Translations under genes and position numbers: made by a program
Notes under the pieces: generated by a model
What the model saw: only the letters and a program-made list of their open reading frames with translations
Databases searched by the model: none
Told to the model about the DNA's origin: nothing
Origin: Escherichia phage vB_EcoM_Maryam
Sequence record: PQ799574.1
DNA: 64,000 nt
Strand: one strand, 5' to 3'
Part shown: positions 1,073 to 47,888 of the stretch, one piece after another
How positions within the stretch are numbered: position 1 is the first letter of the stretch
How the letters are laid out: every line of letters begins with the position of its first letter

Positions 1073-1576
1073 TTGATATGGAGATGGGACATGATTACAG
1101 TAGATAAGTGGTTTAGAATTAATCGTGCTGATACAGGGCTGTGTAATTACTGGCCGGAACTTAGTGCAGGTACTGTCTTTAAAGTTCGTGAACTTGCAAA
1201 AGAATGTGAAGATGATATAGAGCCTGATACTGGAATTATTGAAATTGAACTTTCCGACGGAAAGATTATTAATATCTATGATAAGCCAATTACGTATTGG
1301 TGCTTATGGAATACTGAATCAGTAGAAAATGGTGAAATCGAGGAAGTTGTAGAGCGAACTAATCAAGTTGTTCAGAAGCCTAAAGCTGATTTTCAAGGTG
1401 AACGTATTTCATACGCATTAGCTAAATTAGCTGCGCAAGAAAATAACGATGGCTATGAAGGTAACCTGATGCAAGCTGCGGCAGAATATATTGAATGGCT
1501 TGAAACCCAAATTTCTTTTTCTGACCAAAAGATTCGGCAATATAAGCGATTGAATCAAATGTTTTACAATACTTGA
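1073..1576 (+). CDS. hypothetical protein between nrdC and gene 49
   Basis: ORF track 167 aa; start uncertain (several in-frame ATG). Confidence 0.5.
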   Translation: MIWRWDMITVDKWFRINRADTGLCNYWPELSAGTVFKVRELAKECEDDIEPDTGIIEIELSDGKIINIYDKPITYWCLWNTESVENGEIEEVVERTNQVVQKPKADFQGERISYALAKLAAQENNDGYEGNLMQAAAEYIEWLETQISFSDQKIRQYKRLNQMFYNT

Positions 1577-1587
1577 AAATAATAAAT

Positions 1588-1618
1588 ACCCTTATCTATT
1601 TAAGGTAAGGGTTTTATT
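1588..1618 (+). terminator. stem-loop (ACCCTTA / TAAGGGT, 7 bp) followed by TTTATT, directly before gene 49 ATG
   Basis: Inverted repeat 1588-1594 / 1606-1612 read from sequence; could act as terminator and/or translational control hairpin for gene 49. Confidence 0.45.
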
Positions 1619-2092
1619 ATGTTATTGACTGGCAAATTATATAAAGAAGAAAAACAGAAATTTTATGATGCACAAAATGGTAAATGCTTAATTTGCCAAC
1701 GAGAACTAAATCCTGACGTTCAAGCTAATCACCTCGACCATGACCATGAATTAAATGGACCAAAAGCAGGAAAGGTGCGTGGATTGCTTTGTAATCTCTG
1801 CAATGCCGCAGAAGGTCAAATGAAGCATAAATTTAATCGTTCTGGCTTAAAGGGACAAGGTGTTGATTATCTTGAATGGTTAGAAAATTTACTTACTTAT
1901 TTAAAATCCGATTACACCCAAAATAATATTCACCCTAACTTCGTTGGAGATAAATCAAAGGAATTTTCTCGTTTAGGAAAAGAGGAAATGATGGCTGAGA
2001 TGCTTCAAAGAGGATTTGAATATAATGAATCTGACACTAAAACACAATTAATAGCTTCATTTAAGAAGCAGCTTAGAAAGAGTTTAAAATGA
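1619..2092 (+). CDS. 49: endonuclease VII (Holliday junction resolvase)
   Basis: 157 aa, MLLTGKLYKEEKQKFYDAQNGKCLICQ... matches recalled T4 gp49; zinc-binding Cys cluster. Confidence 0.95.
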   Translation: MLLTGKLYKEEKQKFYDAQNGKCLICQRELNPDVQANHLDHDHELNGPKAGKVRGLLCNLCNAAEGQMKHKFNRSGLKGQGVDYLEWLENLLTYLKSDYTQNNIHPNFVGDKSKEFSRLGKEEMMAEMLQRGFEYNESDTKTQLIASFKKQLRKSLK

Positions 2093-15981: not shown

Positions 15982-16122
15982 TTACCATACTAGTGAATGT
16001 AGTGCCATAATAACATCAGAAATGAAAAGCACGACTTGAATTAATCCGAACATTACTCCATAATATAGTGCTACTAATAAAGTAGCAAGGGCTAATGAAT
16101 AGCCCAAGATTTTCTTAATCAT
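15982..16122 (-). CDS. small membrane protein (46 aa)
   Basis: Minus-strand ORF MIKKILGYSLALATLLVALYYGVMF... between 52 and ac. Confidence 0.4.
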   Translation of the reverse strand: MIKKILGYSLALATLLVALYYGVMFGLIQVVLFISDVIMALHSLVW

Positions 16123-16273
16123 TAGTAGATAACAACACAAATGTTAAATATGCACACATACCTTGGGCTAAAGCTTGCGAAAACACGCTGCTGGCATCAA
16201 TACAGATAGTTAAAACACATGCTACTATCCAACAAATAAATGAAATAACTCCTAATAATTTTGCAATATTCAT
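16115..16273 (-). CDS. small membrane protein, ac-like (52 aa)
   Basis: Minus-strand MNIAKLLGVISFICWIVACVLTICID...; position between 52 and stp as for T4 ac. Confidence 0.4.
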   Translation of the reverse strand: MNIAKLLGVISFICWIVACVLTICIDASSVFSQALAQGMCAYLTFVLLSTND

Positions 16274-22104: not shown

Positions 22105-22134
22105 ATTATACCACATCCTTGTGGTAAAGTAAAC
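22105..22134 (-). promoter_or_regulatory. T4-type early promoter (GTTTAC ... TATAAT) for rIIA.1/rIIA
   Basis: Reverse complement reads GTTTAC ~18 nt TATAAT. Confidence 0.45.
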
Positions 22135-23954
22135 TACTGGCTCATCCATTCTTTACGAAGGTCAGCATTATCTCCCATGAGCATTTCAAAAAGCTCTTTC
22201 CAGTTCTCAGGAAGTTTAACAACATCATATACTGGGTTTTGAATCATCTCACGATATTCAGATTTTTCCAAAGAGCCAAGTCCCTTAATATAACGGATGC
22301 TATGTTTAGGTAGAGCATCTTTGGCACTCTCATATTCAGCGACTGTATAAAACCATTCTTGTTTTTTACCGACCTGAGCGATGATTACAGGAGTTTTGAC
22401 AAAGCGAATTCGTCCTTGCTCAAACAATTCTGGCCAATTACTAAAAAATCCAAGCAGAGAAGGATAAATGCTTCCTAGACCATCATGGTCAGCATCAGTC
22501 ATAATAGCAATATTATGATAATTCAAGTTTTCAGCTTTTTCACCGAGAACTAATCCAGTGATTGCGCAAATATCAAATAGTTCTTTGTTTTTAAGCATAT
22601 CAGCATATGACATACCCCAACTATTAAGAACTTTACCACGCAATGGATAACCACCATGAAGTTCTTTATCACGAACATCAATAAGATATCCGATAGCCGA
22701 ATCACCCTCAGTCAAGAAAAGAGTCGTGTCAGCATCTTTACCACAAAGATTCGCTTTAATATGTTTATGAACCTTAGCTTTAGAAGCCTTTTTAGCTGCT
22801 TTTGTTTCTGCTGCTTTTTCTGCTGCCAATTTACGAGCCAAAGCAGCTTCAATAATCGGCATTAGAATTGCTTCATTATTTAGAATAGCACGTGAAATCT
22901 TTTTAGCATCAAGCTGAATATGACTACGGATTTCACCAAATGGAGAAGTCAAACGCTCTTTAGTTTGAGAATCAAATCGCATGTTTTTCATATCACGAAC
23001 AAACATAACGATAGTCAAACATTCTTTAACACGTGCTTTAGTTACATCAATTTTGAATTTACGTTTGATTTGTGGAATAAGGTCTTCACAAATATCATCC
23101 ATAACACAGTCAATGTGATGGCCACCATTCTTAGTGTGAATGTTATTCACATAAGTTAATTGACGAAATCCATCCGGTGAACGACCAACCGCAATAGAAC
23201 AATTTTCTTGTTCTTGAACAATAGCATGTTCATCATACTGTCGTGCATATTTCTTAAAATTGCCCTGAACCTTTTTACCATTAAAGGTAAATTGAATATC
23301 AGGATAAACAACAGCAAGTGTCTGGAGACGATCTAGTGTAATATCAAGATAAACTTGGGACAGCTCATTAGTTTCAAATGACATAAAATCAGGAATGAAA
23401 GTAACACGTGTTCCTTTCCATTTTCCAGGAATATCTTCCCATGATTTATTTTCCATGCCATTTGAACAACGAACTACAATATTATTTTGACCATCACCCG
23501 TTTCACCAACAAACATCACAGAAAAAATGTTTGTCAAACTAGAACCAACACCATTCATACCGCCGGTGACACGTTCTTTATCATCACCAAAGTTACCACC
23601 CGCTTTTGGAATAGTCCAAGCAGCAACTGGACCAGGAATTTCTTCACCGGTAGGTGTTTTAACCATCGCTTGTGGAATACCACGACCGTTATCTTCAACT
23701 GTTACTTGATTGTTTTTAATAGTAACATTAATTTTATTTGCGAATTTAAACTTAGTACGAATACCTTCATCGACTGAGTTATCGATAATTTCATCAATAA
23801 GCTTAACAAGACCAGGTACATACTGAACACTTTCCCATTTACCAAACAGAAAGCGCTCATGCATTTCATTAGCAGAAGAGCCAATGTACATGCCACTACG
23901 CTTTTTGATATGTTCAATATCGCTCAGAATTTTAATTTCATTCTTAATCATCAC
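22134..23954 (-). CDS. 39: DNA topoisomerase II large (ATPase) subunit, single fused gp39 (T2-type, no gene 60 split)
   Basis: 606 aa continuous ORF covering both the ATPase domain and the TOPRIM-containing C-terminal part. Confidence 0.9.
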   Translation of the reverse strand: MMIKNEIKILSDIEHIKKRSGMYIGSSANEMHERFLFGKWESVQYVPGLVKLIDEIIDNSVDEGIRTKFKFANKINVTIKNNQVTVEDNGRGIPQAMVKTPTGEEIPGPVAAWTIPKAGGNFGDDKERVTGGMNGVGSSLTNIFSVMFVGETGDGQNNIVVRCSNGMENKSWEDIPGKWKGTRVTFIPDFMSFETNELSQVYLDITLDRLQTLAVVYPDIQFTFNGKKVQGNFKKYARQYDEHAIVQEQENCSIAVGRSPDGFRQLTYVNNIHTKNGGHHIDCVMDDICEDLIPQIKRKFKIDVTKARVKECLTIVMFVRDMKNMRFDSQTKERLTSPFGEIRSHIQLDAKKISRAILNNEAILMPIIEAALARKLAAEKAAETKAAKKASKAKVHKHIKANLCGKDADTTLFLTEGDSAIGYLIDVRDKELHGGYPLRGKVLNSWGMSYADMLKNKELFDICAITGLVLGEKAENLNYHNIAIMTDADHDGLGSIYPSLLGFFSNWPELFEQGRIRFVKTPVIIAQVGKKQEWFYTVAEYESAKDALPKHSIRYIKGLGSLEKSEYREMIQNPVYDVVKLPENWKELFEMLMGDNADLRKEWMSQ

Positions 23955-24004: not shown

Positions 24005-24021
24005 AAGGCCCGAAGGCCTTT
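24005..24021. terminator. AGGCC-CGAA-GGCCT hairpin with flanking T-run
   Basis: Inverted repeat 24005-24018 followed by TTTTATTT. Confidence 0.45.
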
Positions 24022-24290
24022 TATTTAAAACGAATAGTTGAATCCTTAAAGAACAGCCCAGAACATACTGTTCCTTCTACTTTCTGCCCGGTAGGTCCAA
24101 TAGCACGAAATCCAGTATGTTGGAAATCATTTTCAGAGCAACCGAACCAGTTATATCCAGTGATTTCAATATTCGTAAAACCACTTGATGATAAAATTTT
24201 AGTTGCATTATCAGCATCAGTACATCCTACTAAAGATACTGCTAATACTAATGCTGCAATAGAACGATTAATATATTTCATAATTTTCAC
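24021..24290 (-). CDS. putative lipoprotein
   Basis: 89 aa; signal peptide with lipobox LVGC. Confidence 0.5.
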   Translation of the reverse strand: MKIMKYINRSIAALVLAVSLVGCTDADNATKILSSSGFTNIEITGYNWFGCSENDFQHTGFRAIGPTGQKVEGTVCSGLFFKDSTIRFK

Positions 24291-24658
24291 TTAAATTTAA
24301 TGGCTTGAAGAAGACTAATAACTCTCAAGCGACTTCTTTCATCTTTAACTGTAAAGGAAAGAGGGTCACCAGATTTCATAGTGATAGTGCATCCAAAATC
24401 AAAATTTTCGGGAACTTCTTTGAAGAAGTCAAATTCTTCATCATAAATTAGAACATTACTCTGACAACTATGAAGAATTTTTCCATCATTTCCAGATGCT
24501 GTACTAATCATTGTAACATTATGACCTTTCATATCTTCAACGATAAATTCACTAGTCAATATTACAGCATTAATAGAACTATTCCTATTACTAGCAGAAA
24601 GTAGAAATTTCTGTTCTTCACCTTCACGAATGCAATATTTCTTACCAATTTTAAACAT
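24287..24658 (-). CDS. hypothetical protein
   Basis: ORF track 123 aa. Confidence 0.5.
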   Translation of the reverse strand: MFKIGKKYCIREGEEQKFLLSASNRNSSINAVILTSEFIVEDMKGHNVTMISTASGNDGKILHSCQSNVLIYDEEFDFFKEVPENFDFGCTITMKSGDPLSFTVKDERSRLRVISLLQAIKFK

Positions 24659-37868: not shown

Positions 37869-38510
37869 TTAACCTTTATTCATAAAAGCATTAAAAATTT
37901 GATCGTCAATAGAAACTTTTACTTTAGGCTGTTCTTCAAACGGTAATTCATATCCACATATTACAATTTTGTGATCGATACCAAAATACACAGAAGCAAT
38001 ATTATTAATATTATTTTCAGTGAAATCTAAATTAACATCAATATCTTTTTGACTAACGCTCAAAGGATAATTAATACGAATAATTCGATTATCTTTAACA
38101 AAGATTCCACCGACATACTCTGTGCTGCGTTTAAAGTTTACACGTTTCCTAAATGAAAAATATTCAGGTTCTTTATGGGCTCGACTCATAGGGCTTAAAG
38201 TGTATTCCGAATATGAAATATCAAATCCTACACCTTCAATATGAGCCAAAGTGTCATGATTAAACCAATTATAATCGTATGCCAAATCCATTAAATTGTA
38301 ATATGTGAAAGGCACCGGATTAACATCATGTGTTGTACCTTTAAAATCTGCCCAGGCAACGATTTCGTTATCTTTAACAATTACAAAAATTGTGTCAATA
38401 AGATATCCACGGTTATTTTCATCAGGCGTTATATTATAACATTGTGCATCAGGAAATTTACCGTATTTAAACGGCGGATTTTTGTGCATATAATAAATCA
38501 TATTATTCAC
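37869..38510 (-). CDS. hypothetical protein (61.2-like), two internal VKDN-type repeats
   Basis: ORF track 213 aa. Confidence 0.5.
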   Translation of the reverse strand: MNNMIYYMHKNPPFKYGKFPDAQCYNITPDENNRGYLIDTIFVIVKDNEIVAWADFKGTTHDVNPVPFTYYNLMDLAYDYNWFNHDTLAHIEGVGFDISYSEYTLSPMSRAHKEPEYFSFRKRVNFKRSTEYVGGIFVKDNRIIRINYPLSVSQKDIDVNLDFTENNINNIASVYFGIDHKIVICGYELPFEEQPKVKVSIDDQIFNAFMNKG

Positions 38511-38796
38511 CTGTGATTTCGGTTACGATATTTTTGTTATTAAAGTTTTTATCGCAATACAGAACATAATTATACTGCATTACACCACCAGACTTAAGTT
38601 GTTTTTGCACTTCAGCTTTCATTTTAGGACGATCGCGCTCAACGATATTCATAATATCCGCTTCAATTTGAGTTTCAACTTCAGTCTGATCTGCAGTCAT
38701 AGACCATTCACACAAATCTTTATCATATCCTGCCATAGCAGGCTGAGCAGCACAAGAAGCCAAAGTAAAAATTGTAGCAAAAATAAATTTTTTCAT
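38503..38796 (-). CDS. sp: periplasmic Spackle-like protein
   Basis: 97 aa with signal peptide MKKFIFATIFTLASCAAQPAMA; size and position match recalled T4 sp (61.3). Confidence 0.6.
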   Translation of the reverse strand: MKKFIFATIFTLASCAAQPAMAGYDKDLCEWSMTADQTEVETQIEADIMNIVERDRPKMKAEVQKQLKSGGVMQYNYVLYCDKNFNNKNIVTEITGE

Positions 38797-43969: not shown

Positions 43970-44122
43970 TTAAACCTCAATTGATACATTCATATTTAAC
44001 TTGTAACAGTAATAAACCCCAACCTAAAATAATAGTCGGAATCATAAGAGGAACCGTTACACTATAGTATATACTTATTATAATCATCAAGATTAAAAGC
44101 AACACTTCTATAATTTTGCTTT

Positions 44123-44374
44123 TCATTCCTTCTCTCTGATGATAATTACTTGATTTGGCTGTGCAGACTTTTTAGTTTCACCCGCAATTGACCAAATAAA
44201 TGTAATAAACCAACCAATAATTGACCAGTTAAACAGCAAAGACGTGAAAAAGATTCCTACTGTCGATTTTGACCCACGCATCAAGGCGATAAACCATGGA
44301 AGCATGTATATAATAATAGCCAACACACCTGAAACTAAAACCATAAAAATTGAACCTGCTACTAAAGTTTCCAT
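44123..44374 (-). CDS. imm: immunity (superinfection exclusion) membrane protein Imm
   Basis: 83 aa, two TM segments. Confidence 0.8.
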   Translation of the reverse strand: METLVAGSIFMVLVSGVLAIIIYMLPWFIALMRGSKSTVGIFFTSLLFNWSIIGWFITFIWSIAGETKKSAQPNQVIIIREKE

Positions 44375-44381
44375 GTTTTCC

Positions 44382-44762
44382 TCACTTAGTCAAATTTTTT
44401 ACGCATGAATTATAAGAATTCACTACATACTCCATCGGAGCATTTTTACCGGTACGCCATTGGTAATTATTAGCCCAATTTGCCCAAAGCTCGGCGCAGT
44501 AGTTTTCAATTTTTTCTTCGCGTGTAATTACATCCGAATTACGATATGCTTGAGCAGATTCATCTGGACGAATAGCTTCGTCAAAATTTGCCTGCATTTG
44601 TTCTACTGTTTGCTTTGGAGCTTCTTTATAACACTTGACATTAGGATTATAAAACTTGCTTGAACAGTTTACAATTTTTCCTACATCAGACTGATTTACT
44701 ACCGGTCCTTGAGCCACACAACCAGTAAGACCTAATGCAATAACCAAAATAGCGATTTTCAT
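44382..44762 (-). CDS. putative lipoprotein adjacent to imm
   Basis: 126 aa; signal peptide with lipobox LTGC. Confidence 0.5.
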   Translation of the reverse strand: MKIAILVIALGLTGCVAQGPVVNQSDVGKIVNCSSKFYNPNVKCYKEAPKQTVEQMQANFDEAIRPDESAQAYRNSDVITREEKIENYCAELWANWANNYQWRTGKNAPMEYVVNSYNSCVKNLTK

Positions 44763-44772
44763 AATAATTTCC

Positions 44773-45021
44773 TCAAATGCAAGTAGTAATTACTCCAGTA
44801 GTGCTTATGCAGGTATTACCCATTTGCACACCTAAAGATCCATTTGTATTCACATGAAGATTATCATCAATTTTAACTGATATTTTACCATTAGTGTGAA
44901 TAACGGTGCTAGATTTAATCACAGGTTGAGTATCATTTTCAACACTAATAAATGGAACTGCTACTAATGCAACTAAACAAACTGCTAAGCATCCCATAAC
45001 AATTTTCATTTTATTCTCCAA
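44773..45021 (-). CDS. secreted/membrane small protein
   Basis: ORF track 82 aa; hydrophobic N-terminus. Confidence 0.45.
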   Translation of the reverse strand: MENKMKIVMGCLAVCLVALVAVPFISVENDTQPVIKSSTVIHTNGKISVKIDDNLHVNTNGSLGVQMGNTCISTTGVITTCI

Positions 45022-45025
45022 ATCT

Positions 45026-45055
45026 GTATCAGTAGTTGATAGTTGTATAGTACCA
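45026..45055 (-). promoter_or_regulatory. T4-type early promoter (GTTTACA 17 nt TACTAT)
   Basis: Reverse complement reads GTTTACAAGACTGTTCTTCTGTGGTACTAT. Confidence 0.5.
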
Positions 45056-45163
45056 CAGAAGAACAGTCTTGTAAACAGTTTTGTGAAAATTTTTTAGGGA
45101 ATTCTAAAGGTCCAGAATCATCTGTTTTTCATAAGTATAGATTTATATTACTTGTATGAAAAA

Positions 45164-45179
45164 GGGACCCGGAGGTCCC
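45164..45179 (-). terminator. GGGACC-loop-GGTCCC hairpin with U-run downstream of gene 43
   Basis: Inverted repeat read from sequence; A-run on plus strand. Confidence 0.55.
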
Positions 45180-45192
45180 TAGATTTATTCTA

Positions 45193-47888
45193 TCAGCCAA
45201 ACAGGAAGTCTAACGAAGCTTTTTCTTCATAGTCCATACCAGCCGATTCACACATGCCTGCAAGCGGTTTAACAAACGATTTTTGGAACAAAGTTGAGTA
45301 GTCAATCCAAGATAGTACATCAGAACGAATTTCTTTTGGAAGTTCTGTACCCGACGGCCAAGCAATGCACTTGTCGCCAAATGGATTTCCTTCACGTAAT
45401 GGAAGAACCATTACCTTATTTCCATCCAAAATTGGAGCTACACCCAGACCACTAACAGCTCGACGATAAGTTAGCACACCACGAATATGGAACGGGCATT
45501 TAAATCCTGGCCAACCTTTATCATCATATTTCGCTATATCGTTCGCAGTTTTTACTTCAGCAATAACTTTATAGTCAAGTTGACGATATTCTTTCTCGAA
45601 GTTCTTGTAATATTCTTGGACAGACTCTTCACCTTCCTGAAGAATACGACGAATACTTTCTTCAAGAGCTTCTTGAACTGCTTTAGGCGTTGAACTTTGC
45701 TGAGTTTCCATACCCATGATTTTTAGATGCGGTTCAGCAAAACGCTTATCTTCCATATCATATACGTTCAGAGCATAACGCTTTTTCGCTTTCCAAAATC
45801 CACCAACGCCCTTTGAACCAAGTGGAGGGCAAGAAATAGCTTCACGGTCCATATGCATCAGATGCTCGCGGTTATTCATATAATCACATAACTCACGATA
45901 TGCAACATCAATCATAGGTTCCATCTTTTTCTTACCGAACTGATTCATGAATTCAACTAAATCGTTCTGCTCTTTGAATCGGTCAAGACCAACTTTTTCA
46001 ATAACTTTATCTACACAAACATATACCGAATCAGTATCACCTGCTGCAATGAAATCTTCGCCATTAGTTCCGCACACTTTATTCAGATACTCATTAATTT
46101 TACGAGCAATCCACTGAATACCAACTTGGCCGAAAATTGTGATAGCAGTAGCATTTCGCAAATCATAGTAACGGAAATGAATATTACCAAGAGCACCGTA
46201 AAGGCTGTTAATAAGAATTTTACGGTTCAGCTGATTTGTATTAGCAAGTGTAGCCGCTTTTTCACATTCTTCAATCAAACTATTGAGAACAGATTCAGTA
46301 TAATTCGATAGTTCATTTAAGAAATCATCACTGAACTTAACATATCGTTCAACTTCAGGTTTAGTTGAACAAGACCCTGCGCCTTTCATAATAATCTTTT
46401 TAATAGCTTCGGCATTCATTTCTTCAGCGAACATTTTCTTTTTCCAATCTTTACGCTGGAAAAATACTTTAGCGATTTCCTTTGGAATGATACCTTCTTG
46501 ATGCTTATCGTACATCCATCCATTCGGAGAACAAGAATATTCATCACTCGGTTTAGGAGCTGTTCCTGCGATATATTCATGAATTGGATGAACTTTAAAC
46601 TGACCACGAATAGTCTCAGGACTAATGTTAACCTGACGAATAATGCTCGGATACAGAGACGTCAAGTCAAAACTCATAATATATCGACGAGCAATTGGTT
46701 TAGGTTCAAATACAAATGCACCCGGAAAACTCTGTTTAACGTGCGAACCTTGTTGAGGAATAACCTTATGTTCACCTTTCAATGAGTTAAAAATAATAGC
46801 ATCCCAGGTTTTAATAGGACTCATTACACCAGAAAAAGGCATTTTAGCGTAATAAGACATACTTAAAACTAGATCGATAAACCCGCGAATTTTATCAATT
46901 GCTTGAACTGATTCTACGTCAATGATGTTATAACTAATGTATCGTTGATGATTAGTCTCACGAAGTTTATTAATAGGACCGTCGTATGGTAATTTACCTT
47001 TTTTGGTTTCATGCTGAGCAACTGATTCCAAAGAGAATGACGGCAAATTAGTAAATGCGAATTTCTTATACAAATCTAAATAATCAAGAATAGATACGCC
47101 ATCAATAGAATAAATTTCTTTGCTACCGTACATATTTTGGATAAGTTTAGATTTTACTCGACCGATTGGAGAGAAGCGTTTCATACTACGTTCACCGAGA
47201 ACCATTTTAACGCGATTCATGATATACGGAACGTCAAATCCCTCAATATTCCAACCAGTAAAAATAGCAGGTCGTTTCTGTTCCCAGAGATTGATATATT
47301 CCATGAGCATATCACGCTCATTATCGAATGGCATATAAATTACTCGGTCAAGAATTTCTTGAGGAACTTCATCACCACCTTCACAGTCAAGCTTAGCAGC
47401 TAACTTTGCATCCCATTTTGATACTGAACCATACATTGAATTCAAAAGGTCGAAAACATAAAAACGATCATCAATTGAATCGTAATGAGTGATAGCATCA
47501 ATTTCATATTCAGCTTTCATTGGGTCAGGAAATTTATCACCAGTAACCTCAATGTCACAGTTAGCTACACGAACAAATTTTCGGTCATAAACAATTTCTG
47601 AACCGTATGTATCACTGATAAAGCGAGTTTAAAATCGTTCATACCGAGAGCTTCGAGACCGATGTCTTCCATTCGTTTCATCCAATCTCGAGCATCTTTC
47701 ATTGATGGAAATTTTTGAGGAGCGCAGTTTTTACCATAGATGTCTTTGTACTTTGACTCTTCCTTACAATGCCTAAACATAGTTGGAAGATATTCTACTT
47801 CACGAGTACGTTCCTTTCCATTTTCATCAATATAACGTTCAACAATATTATTTCCGACTGTTTCAATAGAGATATAAAATTCTTTCAT
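45193..47888 (-). pseudogene. 43: DNA polymerase gp43 interrupted by a 1-nt frameshift near 47619
   Basis: N-terminal 84 codons in ORF 47565..47888, remainder in ORF 45193..47520 in another frame; the second frame is open upstream and reads ISDTYGSEIVYDRKFVRVANCDIEVTGDKFPDPMKAEY. Confidence 0.85.

What the first reader, a model, noticed from the sequence alone, without database searches (positions are those of the whole stretch)
44382..44762. Lipoprotein gene next to imm; several periplasmic or lipoprotein ORFs in the window
ORF 44382..44762 has a signal peptide plus lipobox (LTGC) and lies beside the superinfection-exclusion gene imm. Similar exported proteins are at 24021..24290 (lipobox LVGC) and 38503..38796 (Spackle-like, signal peptide MKKFIFATIFTLASCAAQPAMA). 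All are candidates for envelope-acting exclusion or lysis-inhibition factors.
Basis: partly seen in the sequence, partly recalled or inferred. Interest (0 to 1): 0.35.

Follow-up and report, generated by a model that had tools for sequence, protein, structure and literature searches.

The report
Lipoprotein gene imm.1, partner of imm
The flagged ORF is the T4-type phage gene imm.1, an early-expressed lipoprotein of untested function that sits beside the superinfection-immunity gene imm in every T4-like lineage I examined, so it is a good but unproven candidate for a further envelope-level exclusion factor.

Summary
On the minus strand, 44382..44762 encodes a 126-aa protein with a textbook lipoprotein signal (MKIAILVIALGLTGC, Cys15). 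It lies 7 nt upstream of imm (44123..44374). The window is a Tequatrovirus, and the ORF is the catalogued gene imm.1 (Pfam DUF5481, phrog_1754, function unknown).

New here:
- The family is tiny: 6 clusters among 1.84 billion representatives.
- A phrog_1754 lipoprotein lies beside imm, on the same strand, in all 12 T4-like lineages examined. That held where the pair had moved elsewhere in the genome or the gene order was inverted.
- Two non-T4-like phages with Imm homologs have no such neighbour.
- Published T4 data class imm.1 as early RNA and early protein, like spackle, and as dispensable for lytic growth.
- No family member has Asp at +2, which predicts outer-membrane sorting.
- Two Cys are invariant, and no known fold matches.

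Best reading (about 0.45): a periplasm-facing lipoprotein arm of the Imm exclusion module. No functional test was found in the searchable literature, and Imm alone excludes T4.

The other two ORFs are Spackle (already known) and 39.1, a widespread lipoprotein that the T4 reference carries only as a truncated copy and that has no link to exclusion. The three proteins are unrelated. Interest is moderate.

The parts
44382..44762 (-). imm.1 coding sequence (126 aa including signal peptide; predicted mature lipoprotein of 112 aa starting at Cys15)
   Evidence: ORF and translation. Pfam DUF5481 at E=5.4e-72. phrog_1754 at E=5e-44. 98-99% identical to T2, T4 and T6 Imm.1.
44718..44729 (-). Lipobox codons L12-T13-G14-C15 (CTT ACT GGT TGT). 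Cys15 is the predicted lipidation and cleavage site.
   Evidence: Sequence and pattern scan. The Cys is near-invariant across the family.
44770..44774 (-). Shine-Dalgarno GAGGA of imm.1, overlapping the stop codon of the upstream ORF
   Evidence: Read directly from the sequence.
44123..44374 (-). imm, the superinfection immunity inner-membrane protein (83 aa). Its GAGGA overlaps the imm.1 stop codon, leaving a 7-nt gap.
   Evidence: PF14373 at E=7.7e-16. phrog_1039. Sequence.
43977..44126 (-). Small hydrophobic ORF (49 aa) whose ATG overlaps the imm stop (ATGA). It is conserved after imm in T4 DNA, in L005 and in SP18.
   Evidence: phrog_3610 at E=6e-26. Hydropathy. T4 alignment..
44773..45009 (-). 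Variable 78-aa signal-anchored ORF (ar1_049 / RB51ORF048 type) inserted between the promoter and imm.1. Absent from T4 and T6.
   Evidence: phrog_4189 at E=8e-30. Indel seen in the alignment with T4. Annotations.
45047..45075 (-). Promoter-like site GTTTAC-17-TACTAT with a TG extension, conserved in T4. Candidate early promoter of the ORF82-imm.1-imm-ORF49-42 unit.
   Evidence: Consensus scan and conservation in T4. A pattern match only.
45163..45180 (-). Intrinsic terminator-like hairpin after gene 43 (7-bp GC-rich stem followed by a T-run)
   Evidence: RNA fold gives -13.9 kcal/mol, z = -2.2.
38503..38796 (-). sp (gene 61.3), Spackle: periplasmic inhibitor of the gp5 tail lysozyme
   Evidence: PF25676 at E=6.8e-45. 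phrog_1586. PMC7677548.
24021..24281 (-). Gene 39.1, full-length lipoprotein form (86 aa from the ATG; lipobox LVGC)
   Evidence: 98% identical to T4 39.1 over 62 aa. phrog_902. Found in 1070 phage records.

Best explanation
The ORF is imm.1, and I read it as the lipoprotein arm of the Imm superinfection-exclusion module of T4-like phages.

Shown:
- It is a real, conserved gene and is expressed early in T4.
- It sits in one tightly packed same-strand unit with imm: the imm ribosome-binding site overlaps the imm.1 stop codon.
- Its product has a canonical lipoprotein signal peptide.

Inferred from established lipoprotein biology:
- The precursor is exported by Sec, lipidated at Cys15 (Lgt, LspA, Lnt) and, lacking Asp at +2, carried by the Lol system to the inner leaflet of the outer membrane.
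- The mature 112-residue protein has a flexible tether of about 35 residues carrying the invariant YNPNVK motif. This is followed by a helical domain stapled by the invariant Cys89-Cys120 pair, presumably a DsbA-made disulfide.

Inferred from context:
- From the outer membrane it acts in the periplasm on the incoming tail tip of a superinfecting T-even phage (hub, tube end or released tape-measure protein), or directly on Imm.
- It would complement Imm, which binds the tape-measure protein at the inner membrane, and Spackle, which blocks the gp5 lysozyme at the cell wall.
- The result would be that secondary phage DNA fails to reach the cytoplasm.
For: 1. Identity and reality:
- DUF5481 and phrog_1754 hits.
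- At least 95% identical in 501 Tequatrovirus records.
- In T4 the gene is classed early-RNA/early-protein together with sp (PMC9697503 supplement).

2. Lipoprotein signal:
-.
- The Cys is kept in 12 of 13 aligned family members. No member has Asp at +2.

3. Linkage to imm. Exhaustive phmmer finds only 6 clusters in 1.84e9 representatives. A phrog_1754 gene lies beside a PF14373 gene on the same strand in every T4-like locus fetched whose contig reached far enough to show the neighbour:
- Tequatrovirus, between genes 43 and 42.
- Mosigvirus ST0, where the pair has moved next to sp, between 61.4 and 61.2.
- L005, next to frd.3.
- L008 and L010.
- Gaprivervirus and Dhakavirus, with inverted order imm then lipoprotein.
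- Salmonella S16, Klebsiella Roth19 and Serratia PS2.
- All of these lipoproteins match phrog_1754 over their full length, E from 2e-15 to 5e-46.
- Imm and the Roth19-type lipoprotein are each found in 135 Klebsiella phage records.
- Non-T4-like phages with Imm homologs have no such neighbour.

4. Operon structure: 7-nt gap, no promoter or terminator between the two genes.

5. Accessory character:
- CRISPRi-ART knock-down of T4 imm.1 is 'Not Fit', score -0.77.
- The protein diverges faster than its neighbours: 25-45% identity where Imm is 37-83%, gp42 74-92% and the polymerase 85%.

6. Plausible target zone: Imm binds the tape-measure protein, and Imm's N-terminus faces the periplasm (bioRxiv 10.64898/2026.03.06.709160).
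Against: - No phenotype is known for imm.1 in any paper I could search.
- Imm expressed alone from a plasmid already lowers T4 plating, and the Imm-tape-measure complex forms without Imm.1.
- From my own knowledge, classical genetics named only imm and sp as exclusion loci.
- One lineage (P0005) has Phe in place of the lipobox Cys plus an AHA|S cleavage site, so lipid anchoring is not indispensable.
- The AlphaFold models are only moderately confident (mean pLDDT 65 and 70) and show a generic helical hairpin with no informative structural neighbour.
- Gene adjacency is guilt by association. Small early membrane-protein genes could in principle travel together for expression reasons.
Confidence: 0.45

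Rival explanations
1. Imm.1 is an envelope protein with a role unrelated to exclusion of secondary phages. Examples would be stabilising the infected cell's envelope, tuning lysis timing, or neutralising a host periplasmic or outer-membrane defence or enzyme. Its position beside imm would then only reflect a shared early 'membrane protein' expression cassette.
For: - Early expression and dispensability fit any accessory envelope function.
- Rapid divergence fits an arms race with a host factor as well as one with a phage factor.
- Other small membrane ORFs, ORF82 and ORF49, share the same unit.
- Imm works without it.
Against: - Linkage to imm survives translocation to two other genomic neighbourhoods and an inversion of gene order. 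The variable neighbours ORF82 and ORF49 come and go.
- No match to any defence or anti-defence model or to any enzyme-inhibitor family.
Confidence: 0.25
2. Imm.1 is a dedicated helper of Imm itself. It would bind Imm's periplasmic face to insert, stabilise or position it, for example at envelope contact sites, and would have no target on the incoming phage.
For: - Strict adjacency, and a ribosome-binding site overlapping the stop codon, suggest matched synthesis.
- Imm's N-terminus is periplasmic.
- The pair is inherited as a unit.
Against: - Imm is active and purifies with its target without Imm.1.
- Imm homologs in other phage groups function as lone genes.
- Imm.1 diverges much faster than Imm in most lineages compared, which is unusual for an obligate chaperone-client pair.
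- The spacer between the two genes is 61 nt in Mosigvirus, and the order is inverted in other genera, so tight translational coupling is not universal.
Confidence: 0.15
3. Imm.1 masks the phage receptor from the periplasmic side, like T5 Llp on FhuA or Cor. This would prevent adsorption of secondary phage and inactivation of progeny on cell debris.
For: It is a small phage lipoprotein with disulfide-forming cysteines, expressed early. This is the same general format as Llp (PMC9586334, listed but not read in detail).
Against: - Imm.1 is 98-99% identical in T2, T4 and T6, and from my own knowledge these phages use different outer-membrane receptors.
- There is no sequence or fold similarity to Llp or Cor. 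The only matches are weak ones to the Cor PHROG, confined to the N-terminal 40 residues or fewer, which are mostly signal peptide.
- Superinfecting T-even phages still adsorb and eject DNA into the periplasm (annotation text; own knowledge).
Confidence: 0.05

Closest known systems
T4 gene imm.1 (UniProt P18057; Pfam DUF5481; PHROG phrog_1754)
   Same: It is the same gene: 99% identical protein, same position between genes 43 and imm, same lipobox.
   Different: The window has Thr where T4 has Ala at lipobox position -2, and one extra C-terminal residue. It also has an additional 78-aa ORF inserted just upstream. The family's function is unassigned in every library searched.
T4 Spackle (gp61.3), periplasmic inhibitor of the gp5 tail lysozyme
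   Same: An early, exported, small, helical, disulfide-containing protein of the same phage. In Mosigvirus the genes lie in a row: imm.1, imm, sp.
   Different: No sequence similarity. Spackle is released into the periplasm by signal peptidase I, whereas Imm.1 is predicted to be lipid-anchored. Spackle's target is known and Imm.1's is not.
T4 Imm (PF14373), inner-membrane protein that binds the tape-measure protein
   Same: Same transcription unit, same timing, and always co-inherited in T4-like phages.
   Different: Imm is an integral membrane protein with no cysteines and no signal peptide. The Imm family is widespread beyond T4-like phages, whereas the Imm.1 family is confined to them.
T5 Llp and phi80/N15 Cor, lipoproteins that cause superinfection exclusion by blocking FhuA
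   Same: Small phage-encoded lipoproteins acting from the periplasmic side of the outer membrane.
   Different: No homology. Imm.1 does not vary with receptor specificity.
Outer-membrane spanin subunits (lambda Rz1, T4 PseT.3)
   Same: Phage lipoproteins predicted to go to the outer membrane.
   Different: Spanins are late lysis genes paired with an inner-membrane spanin gene. Imm.1 is early, is paired with imm, is longer, and is helical rather than proline-rich.
MliC/PliC-type lipoprotein lysozyme inhibitors
   Same: Periplasm-facing lipoproteins that neutralise an incoming lytic enzyme. This is a conceivable mode of action.
   Different: No Pfam, PDB-sequence or fold match. From my own knowledge those inhibitors are beta-barrels, whereas Imm.1 is predicted helical.

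Membership tests
Bacterial-type lipoprotein (signal peptidase II substrate) | Positively charged N-region followed by a hydrophobic core | tested here: met
   Lys2, then IAILVIALG with mean hydropathy 3.2 over 10 residues.
Bacterial-type lipoprotein (signal peptidase II substrate) | Lipobox [LVI][ASTVI][GAS]C with the Cys about 15-35 residues from the start | tested here: met
   L-T-G-C with Cys15. Passes the PROSITE-style rule, which 6 of 322 window ORFs pass against 0.7 in shuffles.
Bacterial-type lipoprotein (signal peptidase II substrate) | Lipobox Cys conserved in homologs | tested here: met
   Present in 12 of 13 aligned family members. The single exception has Phe plus a signal peptidase I site.
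Bacterial-type lipoprotein (signal peptidase II substrate) | Actual lipid modification and globomycin-sensitive cleavage; membrane location | not testable with these tools
   Needs labelling and fractionation. Outer-membrane sorting is inferred only from the absence of Asp at +2.
DUF5481 / phrog_1754 (Imm.1 family) | Profile match above the curated threshold over the full domain | tested here: met
   PF17578: 239 bits against a cut-off of 27, covering 103 of 103 profile positions. phrog_1754: E=5e-44.
DUF5481 / phrog_1754 (Imm.1 family) | Invariant Cys pair in the C-terminal helices | tested here: met
   Cys89 and Cys120 are invariant in 13 diverse members. They lie in the confidently modelled helices 81-104 and 110-125. 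The disulfide itself is not tested.
T-even superinfection-exclusion factors (Imm, Spackle) | Expression immediately after infection | tested here: met
   The T4 ortholog is classed early RNA and early protein in published omics data. This is evidence from T4, not from this phage.
T-even superinfection-exclusion factors (Imm, Spackle) | Expression reduces productive entry of a secondary T-even phage | not testable with these tools
   No experiment found in the searchable literature.
T-even superinfection-exclusion factors (Imm, Spackle) | Dispensable for single-phage lytic growth | tested here: met
   CRISPRi-ART knock-down of T4 imm.1 scored 'Not Fit', -0.77, p=0.98.
Receptor-blocking lipoproteins (Llp, Cor) | Sequence or fold similarity to Llp or Cor | tested here: not met
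   Only weak matches to phrog_1119, confined to the N-terminal 40 residues or fewer, in two relatives. No structural neighbour.
Receptor-blocking lipoproteins (Llp, Cor) | Specificity that tracks the phage's receptor | tested here: not met
   98-99% identity among T2, T4 and T6. That these phages use different receptors is my own knowledge.
Outer-membrane spanin | Late expression and pairing with an inner-membrane spanin gene | tested here: not met
   Early expression. The neighbours are imm, a 49-aa ORF, gene 42 and gene 43.
Spackle (PF25676), for ORF 38503..38796 | Profile match, cleavable signal peptide, Cys29/Cys81 pair | tested here: met
   E=6.8e-45 over 96 of 96 positions. Cys at 29 and 81. 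The published mature form has 75 residues and that disulfide.

The most novel reading that the evidence does not exclude
Imm.1, Imm and perhaps the 49-aa ORF form a two-membrane exclusion device found across the enterobacterial T4-like phages sampled here. An outer-membrane-tethered lipoprotein and an inner-membrane protein would together intercept the tail-tube and tape-measure conduit of a superinfecting phage. That would make Imm.1 an overlooked third T-even exclusion factor, after more than fifty years of work on imm and sp.
Probability: 0.3. Interest if true: 0.65.

Novelty: new member of a known kind. Interest (0 to 1): 0.4.

Why it matters
T4 superinfection exclusion is a textbook phenomenon attributed to two genes, imm and sp. 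A 2026 preprint has just given Imm a molecular target, the tape-measure protein.

A lipoprotein is co-inherited with imm in all 12 T4-like lineages examined, which infect Escherichia, Shigella, Salmonella, Klebsiella and Serratia; relatives of the lipoprotein, whose neighbourhood I did not check, also occur in Enterobacter and Citrobacter phages. If it takes part in exclusion, the model of how these phages close the envelope behind themselves is incomplete. It could also explain any partial exclusion seen with Imm alone. The hypothesis is cheap to test with one deletion and one plasmid.

There is also practical relevance for phage cocktails, because cross-exclusion between T-even phages limits co-infection. 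If the function is something else, imm.1 is still one of the most conserved uncharacterised exported proteins of this phage group.

Tried and rejected
- Sequence search of the PDB: nothing, best E 0.85.
- NCBIfam and PADLOC: only noise.
- Foldseek of two AlphaFold models against the PDB: best E 3.6 and 1.2, generic helical hairpins.
- Foldseek against viral models: only the protein's own family, plus weak 'lipoprotein' hits in Citrobacter CF1 and Klebsiella Marfa.
- The search for related loci with the broad alignment failed for lack of a conserved stretch. With the narrow alignment it gave only 7 IMG/VR loci, all Tequatrovirus or Mosigvirus types, so I did not analyse them further.
- The word-indexed protein search found very few relatives. 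The exhaustive search confirmed that the family really is small.
- Profile-profile comparison of mature domains gave only a transitive chain: 77% and 94% probability for the neighbouring group pairs, weak for the extremes. The shared phrog_1754 match settled homology.
- An earlier hhalign hit was driven mostly by the signal peptide, so I discounted it.
- Similarity of Imm.1 to Spackle or to 39.1: none.
- The spanin, receptor-masking and lysozyme-inhibitor readings were considered and set aside (see membership tests).
- The original imm papers (Lu and Henning 1989; Lu et al. 1993) and the 2003 T4 genome review are not held in the library. I therefore could not check whether the upstream ORF was ever tested there.

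Full report
**What the window is.** The 1.35-kb stretch around the finding is 99.9% identical to Shigella phage KRT47. It is at least 90% identical to more than 500 Tequatrovirus genomes. Gene order on the minus strand is: 43 (DNA polymerase), a 78-aa ORF, the flagged ORF, imm, a 49-aa ORF, 42 (dCMP hydroxymethylase), and a T2/T6-type beta-glucosyl-HMC-alpha-glucosyltransferase.

**Checking the observation.**
- ORF 44382..44762(-) starts at an ATG preceded by GAGGA. It encodes MKIAILVIALGLTGC..., with Lys2, a strongly hydrophobic core, lipobox LTGC with Cys15 and Val at +2. Four further cysteines lie at 33, 44, 89 and 120.
- Its neighbour 44123..44374(-) is Imm (PF14373, E=7.7e-16; phrog_1039).
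- ORF 38503..38796(-) is Spackle (PF25676, E=6.8e-45) with the published disulfide cysteines.
- ORF 24021..24290(-) has lipobox LVGC. Its likelier start is the ATG at 24281.
- A PROSITE-style lipobox rule hits 6 of 322 six-frame ORFs in the window, against 0.7 on average in shuffles. The pattern alone is suggestive. Conservation in homologs is what makes it solid.
- The three proteins are unrelated to each other.

**What the ORF is.**
- It is T4 gene imm.1: Pfam DUF5481 at 239 bits, and phrog_1754 labelled 'unknown function'.
- It is 98-99% identical to the T2, T4 and T6 proteins.
- Database annotations range from 'predicted membrane protein' and 'immunity protein' (by proximity) to an evidently spurious 'iduronate sulfatase'.
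- No paper in the searchable library reports a function. One comparative paper merely lists Imm.1 as a T4-group marker and speculates about exclusion.

**Expression and dispensability in T4.**
- Supplementary tables of a time-resolved omics study class imm.1 as early at both the RNA and the protein level, in the same class as sp, 61.4 and dmd.
- In the CRISPRi-ART screen, knock-down of imm.1 had no fitness cost (-0.77, 'Not Fit'), and its prior essentiality status was 'unknown'.
- It is therefore a real, expressed, accessory early gene.

**Local anatomy.**
- After the gene 43 stop there is a GC-rich hairpin with a T-run at 45163..45180.
- This is followed by a promoter-like GTTTAC-17-TACTAT at 45047..45075 that is conserved in T4.
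- From there to gene 42 the ORFs are packed. The ORF82 stop overlaps the imm.1 Shine-Dalgarno sequence. The imm.1 stop overlaps the imm Shine-Dalgarno sequence, leaving a 7-nt gap. The imm stop overlaps the ORF49 start (ATGA). Gene 42 starts 7 nt after ORF49.
- Alignment with T4 shows the two phages are near-identical here, except for a cassette of about 245 bp carrying ORF82, inserted exactly between the T4 ribosome-binding site and the imm.1 ATG. T2, AR1 and PP01 have the cassette; T4 and T6 do not.

**Distribution and linkage, the main new result.**

An exhaustive phmmer search of 1.84 billion cluster representatives found only six clusters, so the DUF5481 family proper is tiny. In each case where the contig reaches far enough, a Pfam Imm_superinfect gene lies beside the homolog on the same strand:
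- Mosigvirus ST0. The pair sits in a different genomic place, between 61.4 and 61.2, so the order there is imm.1, imm, sp.
- Metagenomic L005. The pair is next to frd.3 and is followed by a 49-aa ORF.
- L008 and L010. The pair lies between genes 43 and 42.

A profile search added proteins of about 165 aa from Gaprivervirus and Dhakavirus. There the order is inverted: 43, imm, a small ORF, then the lipoprotein.

Going the other way, I took Imm homologs from further genera. Each has exactly one good lipoprotein ORF directly beside imm:
- Salmonella S16.
- Klebsiella Roth19.
- Serratia PS2.

All of these lipoproteins match phrog_1754 over their full length, with E from 2e-15 to 5e-46. This settles the homology that profile-profile comparison of mature domains only supported transitively.

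Further points:
- Imm and the Roth19-type lipoprotein are each found in 135 Klebsiella phage records.
- Relatives also occur in Enterobacter, Citrobacter, Kosakonia, Edwardsiella and other T4-like phages.
- Two non-T4-like phages with Imm homologs have no adjacent lipoprotein. One of them carries imm as a lone opposite-strand gene between the tape-measure and tail-tube genes.

**Protein features.**
- Across 13 diverse members, the invariant positions are Met1, Lys2, Gly14, Cys89 and Cys120. Leu12 and Cys15 are nearly invariant.
- Within the DUF5481 subgroup, YNP..K and ..YR.S motifs are also invariant.
- No member has Asp at +2. Under the E. coli sorting rule this predicts transfer to the outer membrane.
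- One lineage has replaced the Cys by Phe and has an AHA|S site. This implies a soluble periplasmic form, so the periplasm is the constant location.
- AlphaFold gives a low-confidence N-terminal tether and a confident C-terminal helical hairpin containing both invariant cysteines. pLDDT there is 86-89 in the window protein and 93-95 in a 167-aa relative.
- Neither model has a meaningful neighbour in the PDB, and viral models return only the family itself.
- The protein evolves fast: 25-45% identity in comparisons where Imm is 37-83%, gp42 is 74-92% and the polymerase is 85%.

**Mechanism.** A recent preprint shows that Imm binds the helical-bundle domain of the T4 tape-measure protein and that plasmid-borne Imm lowers T4 plating. 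Spackle inhibits the gp5 lysozyme in the periplasm.

Against that background the most economical reading is that Imm.1 is a periplasm-facing, probably outer-membrane-anchored, member of the same exclusion module. It would act on the incoming tail tip or on Imm itself. I put this at about 0.45.

- For it: the linkage, the timing, the location and the dispensability.
- Against it: Imm is sufficient on its own, there is no phenotype, and adjacency is only association.

Rivals:
- An unrelated envelope or counter-defence role (0.25).
- A pure Imm helper (0.15).
- Llp-like receptor masking (0.05). This is disfavoured because T2, T4 and T6, which from my own knowledge use different receptors, have virtually identical Imm.1.

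A spanin role is excluded by the early timing and the gene context.

**The other two ORFs.**
- Spackle is a known protein. It is a curiosity that its signal peptide also contains a lipobox-like LASC. The literature, however, describes a 75-residue soluble mature protein.
- The 39.1 ORF is the intact form of a lipoprotein found in 1070 phage records, including Klebsiella, Enterobacter, Aeromonas and even a Sphingobium phage.
- The T4 reference copy of 39.1 is an N-terminally truncated 65-aa remnant without the signal peptide. Nothing connects it with exclusion.

**Verdict.**
- The gene itself is catalogued, so this is not a new entity. The conserved imm.1-imm partnership across genera, through translocation and inversion, was not found in the literature I could search, and it gives a directly testable hypothesis.
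- Interest is moderate (0.4).

Noticed in passing
window 47565..47888(-) and 45193..47520(-); break at about 47620/47621: Gene 43 (DNA polymerase) is split into a 107-aa N-terminal ORF and a 775-aa ORF. Alignment with T4 and T6 shows one missing A (GCTTATATC becomes GCTT-TATC). This is a frameshift in an essential gene, so it is probably a sequencing or assembly error in the source.
   Followed up: partly
window 44773..45009(-): A 78-aa ORF (phrog_4189, signal-anchor MKIVMGCLAVCLVALVAVPF...) is an indel cassette placed exactly between the promoter/ribosome-binding site and imm.1. It is present in the window, T2, AR1 and PP01, and absent in T4 and T6. Both this ORF and imm.1 begin ATGAAAAT, which suggests short-repeat recombination.
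   Followed up: partly
window 43977..44126(-): A 49-aa very hydrophobic ORF (phrog_3610) overlaps the imm stop codon. It is conserved in T4 DNA but not annotated in NC_000866. Equivalents follow imm in a metagenomic contig (49 aa) and in SP18 (47 aa).
   Followed up: partly
window 24021..24281(-) and 24287..24658(-); T4 locus L013 3399..3596: The T4 reference gene 39.1 (65 aa) lacks the signal peptide and lipobox that the window and more than 1000 other phage records have. The window also has a 123-aa ORF between 39.1 and 39.2 that T4 lacks. T4 therefore seems to carry a deletion remnant here.
   Followed up: partly
window 22134..23954(-): The topoisomerase large subunit is a single 606-aa ORF. 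In T4 it is split into genes 39 and 60, with mobA between them and the translational bypass in gene 60.
   Followed up: no
L018 (Klebsiella phage 37P2, Guernseyvirinae) 1477..1671: An Imm homolog sits alone on the opposite strand, between the tail assembly chaperone/tape-measure genes and the tail-tube gene. That is a suggestive position, given that T4 Imm binds the tape-measure protein.
   Followed up: no
window 38503..38796(-), residues 12-15: Spackle's signal peptide contains a lipobox-like LASC (Cys15) upstream of the AMA|G cleavage site, and the Mosigvirus ortholog has AVSC. Published work treats Spackle as a soluble 75-residue protein.
   Followed up: no
window 16115..16273(-): A 52-aa hydrophobic ORF (MNIAKLLGVISFICWIVAC...) with a ribosome-binding site passes the lipobox rule. 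It looks more like a small membrane protein than a lipoprotein.
   Followed up: no
T4 RefSeq NC_000866 26636..27013 and several other records: imm.1 is annotated 'iduronate sulfatase' in RefSeq and in derived records. No family search supports this, so it looks like a propagated annotation error.
   Followed up: yes
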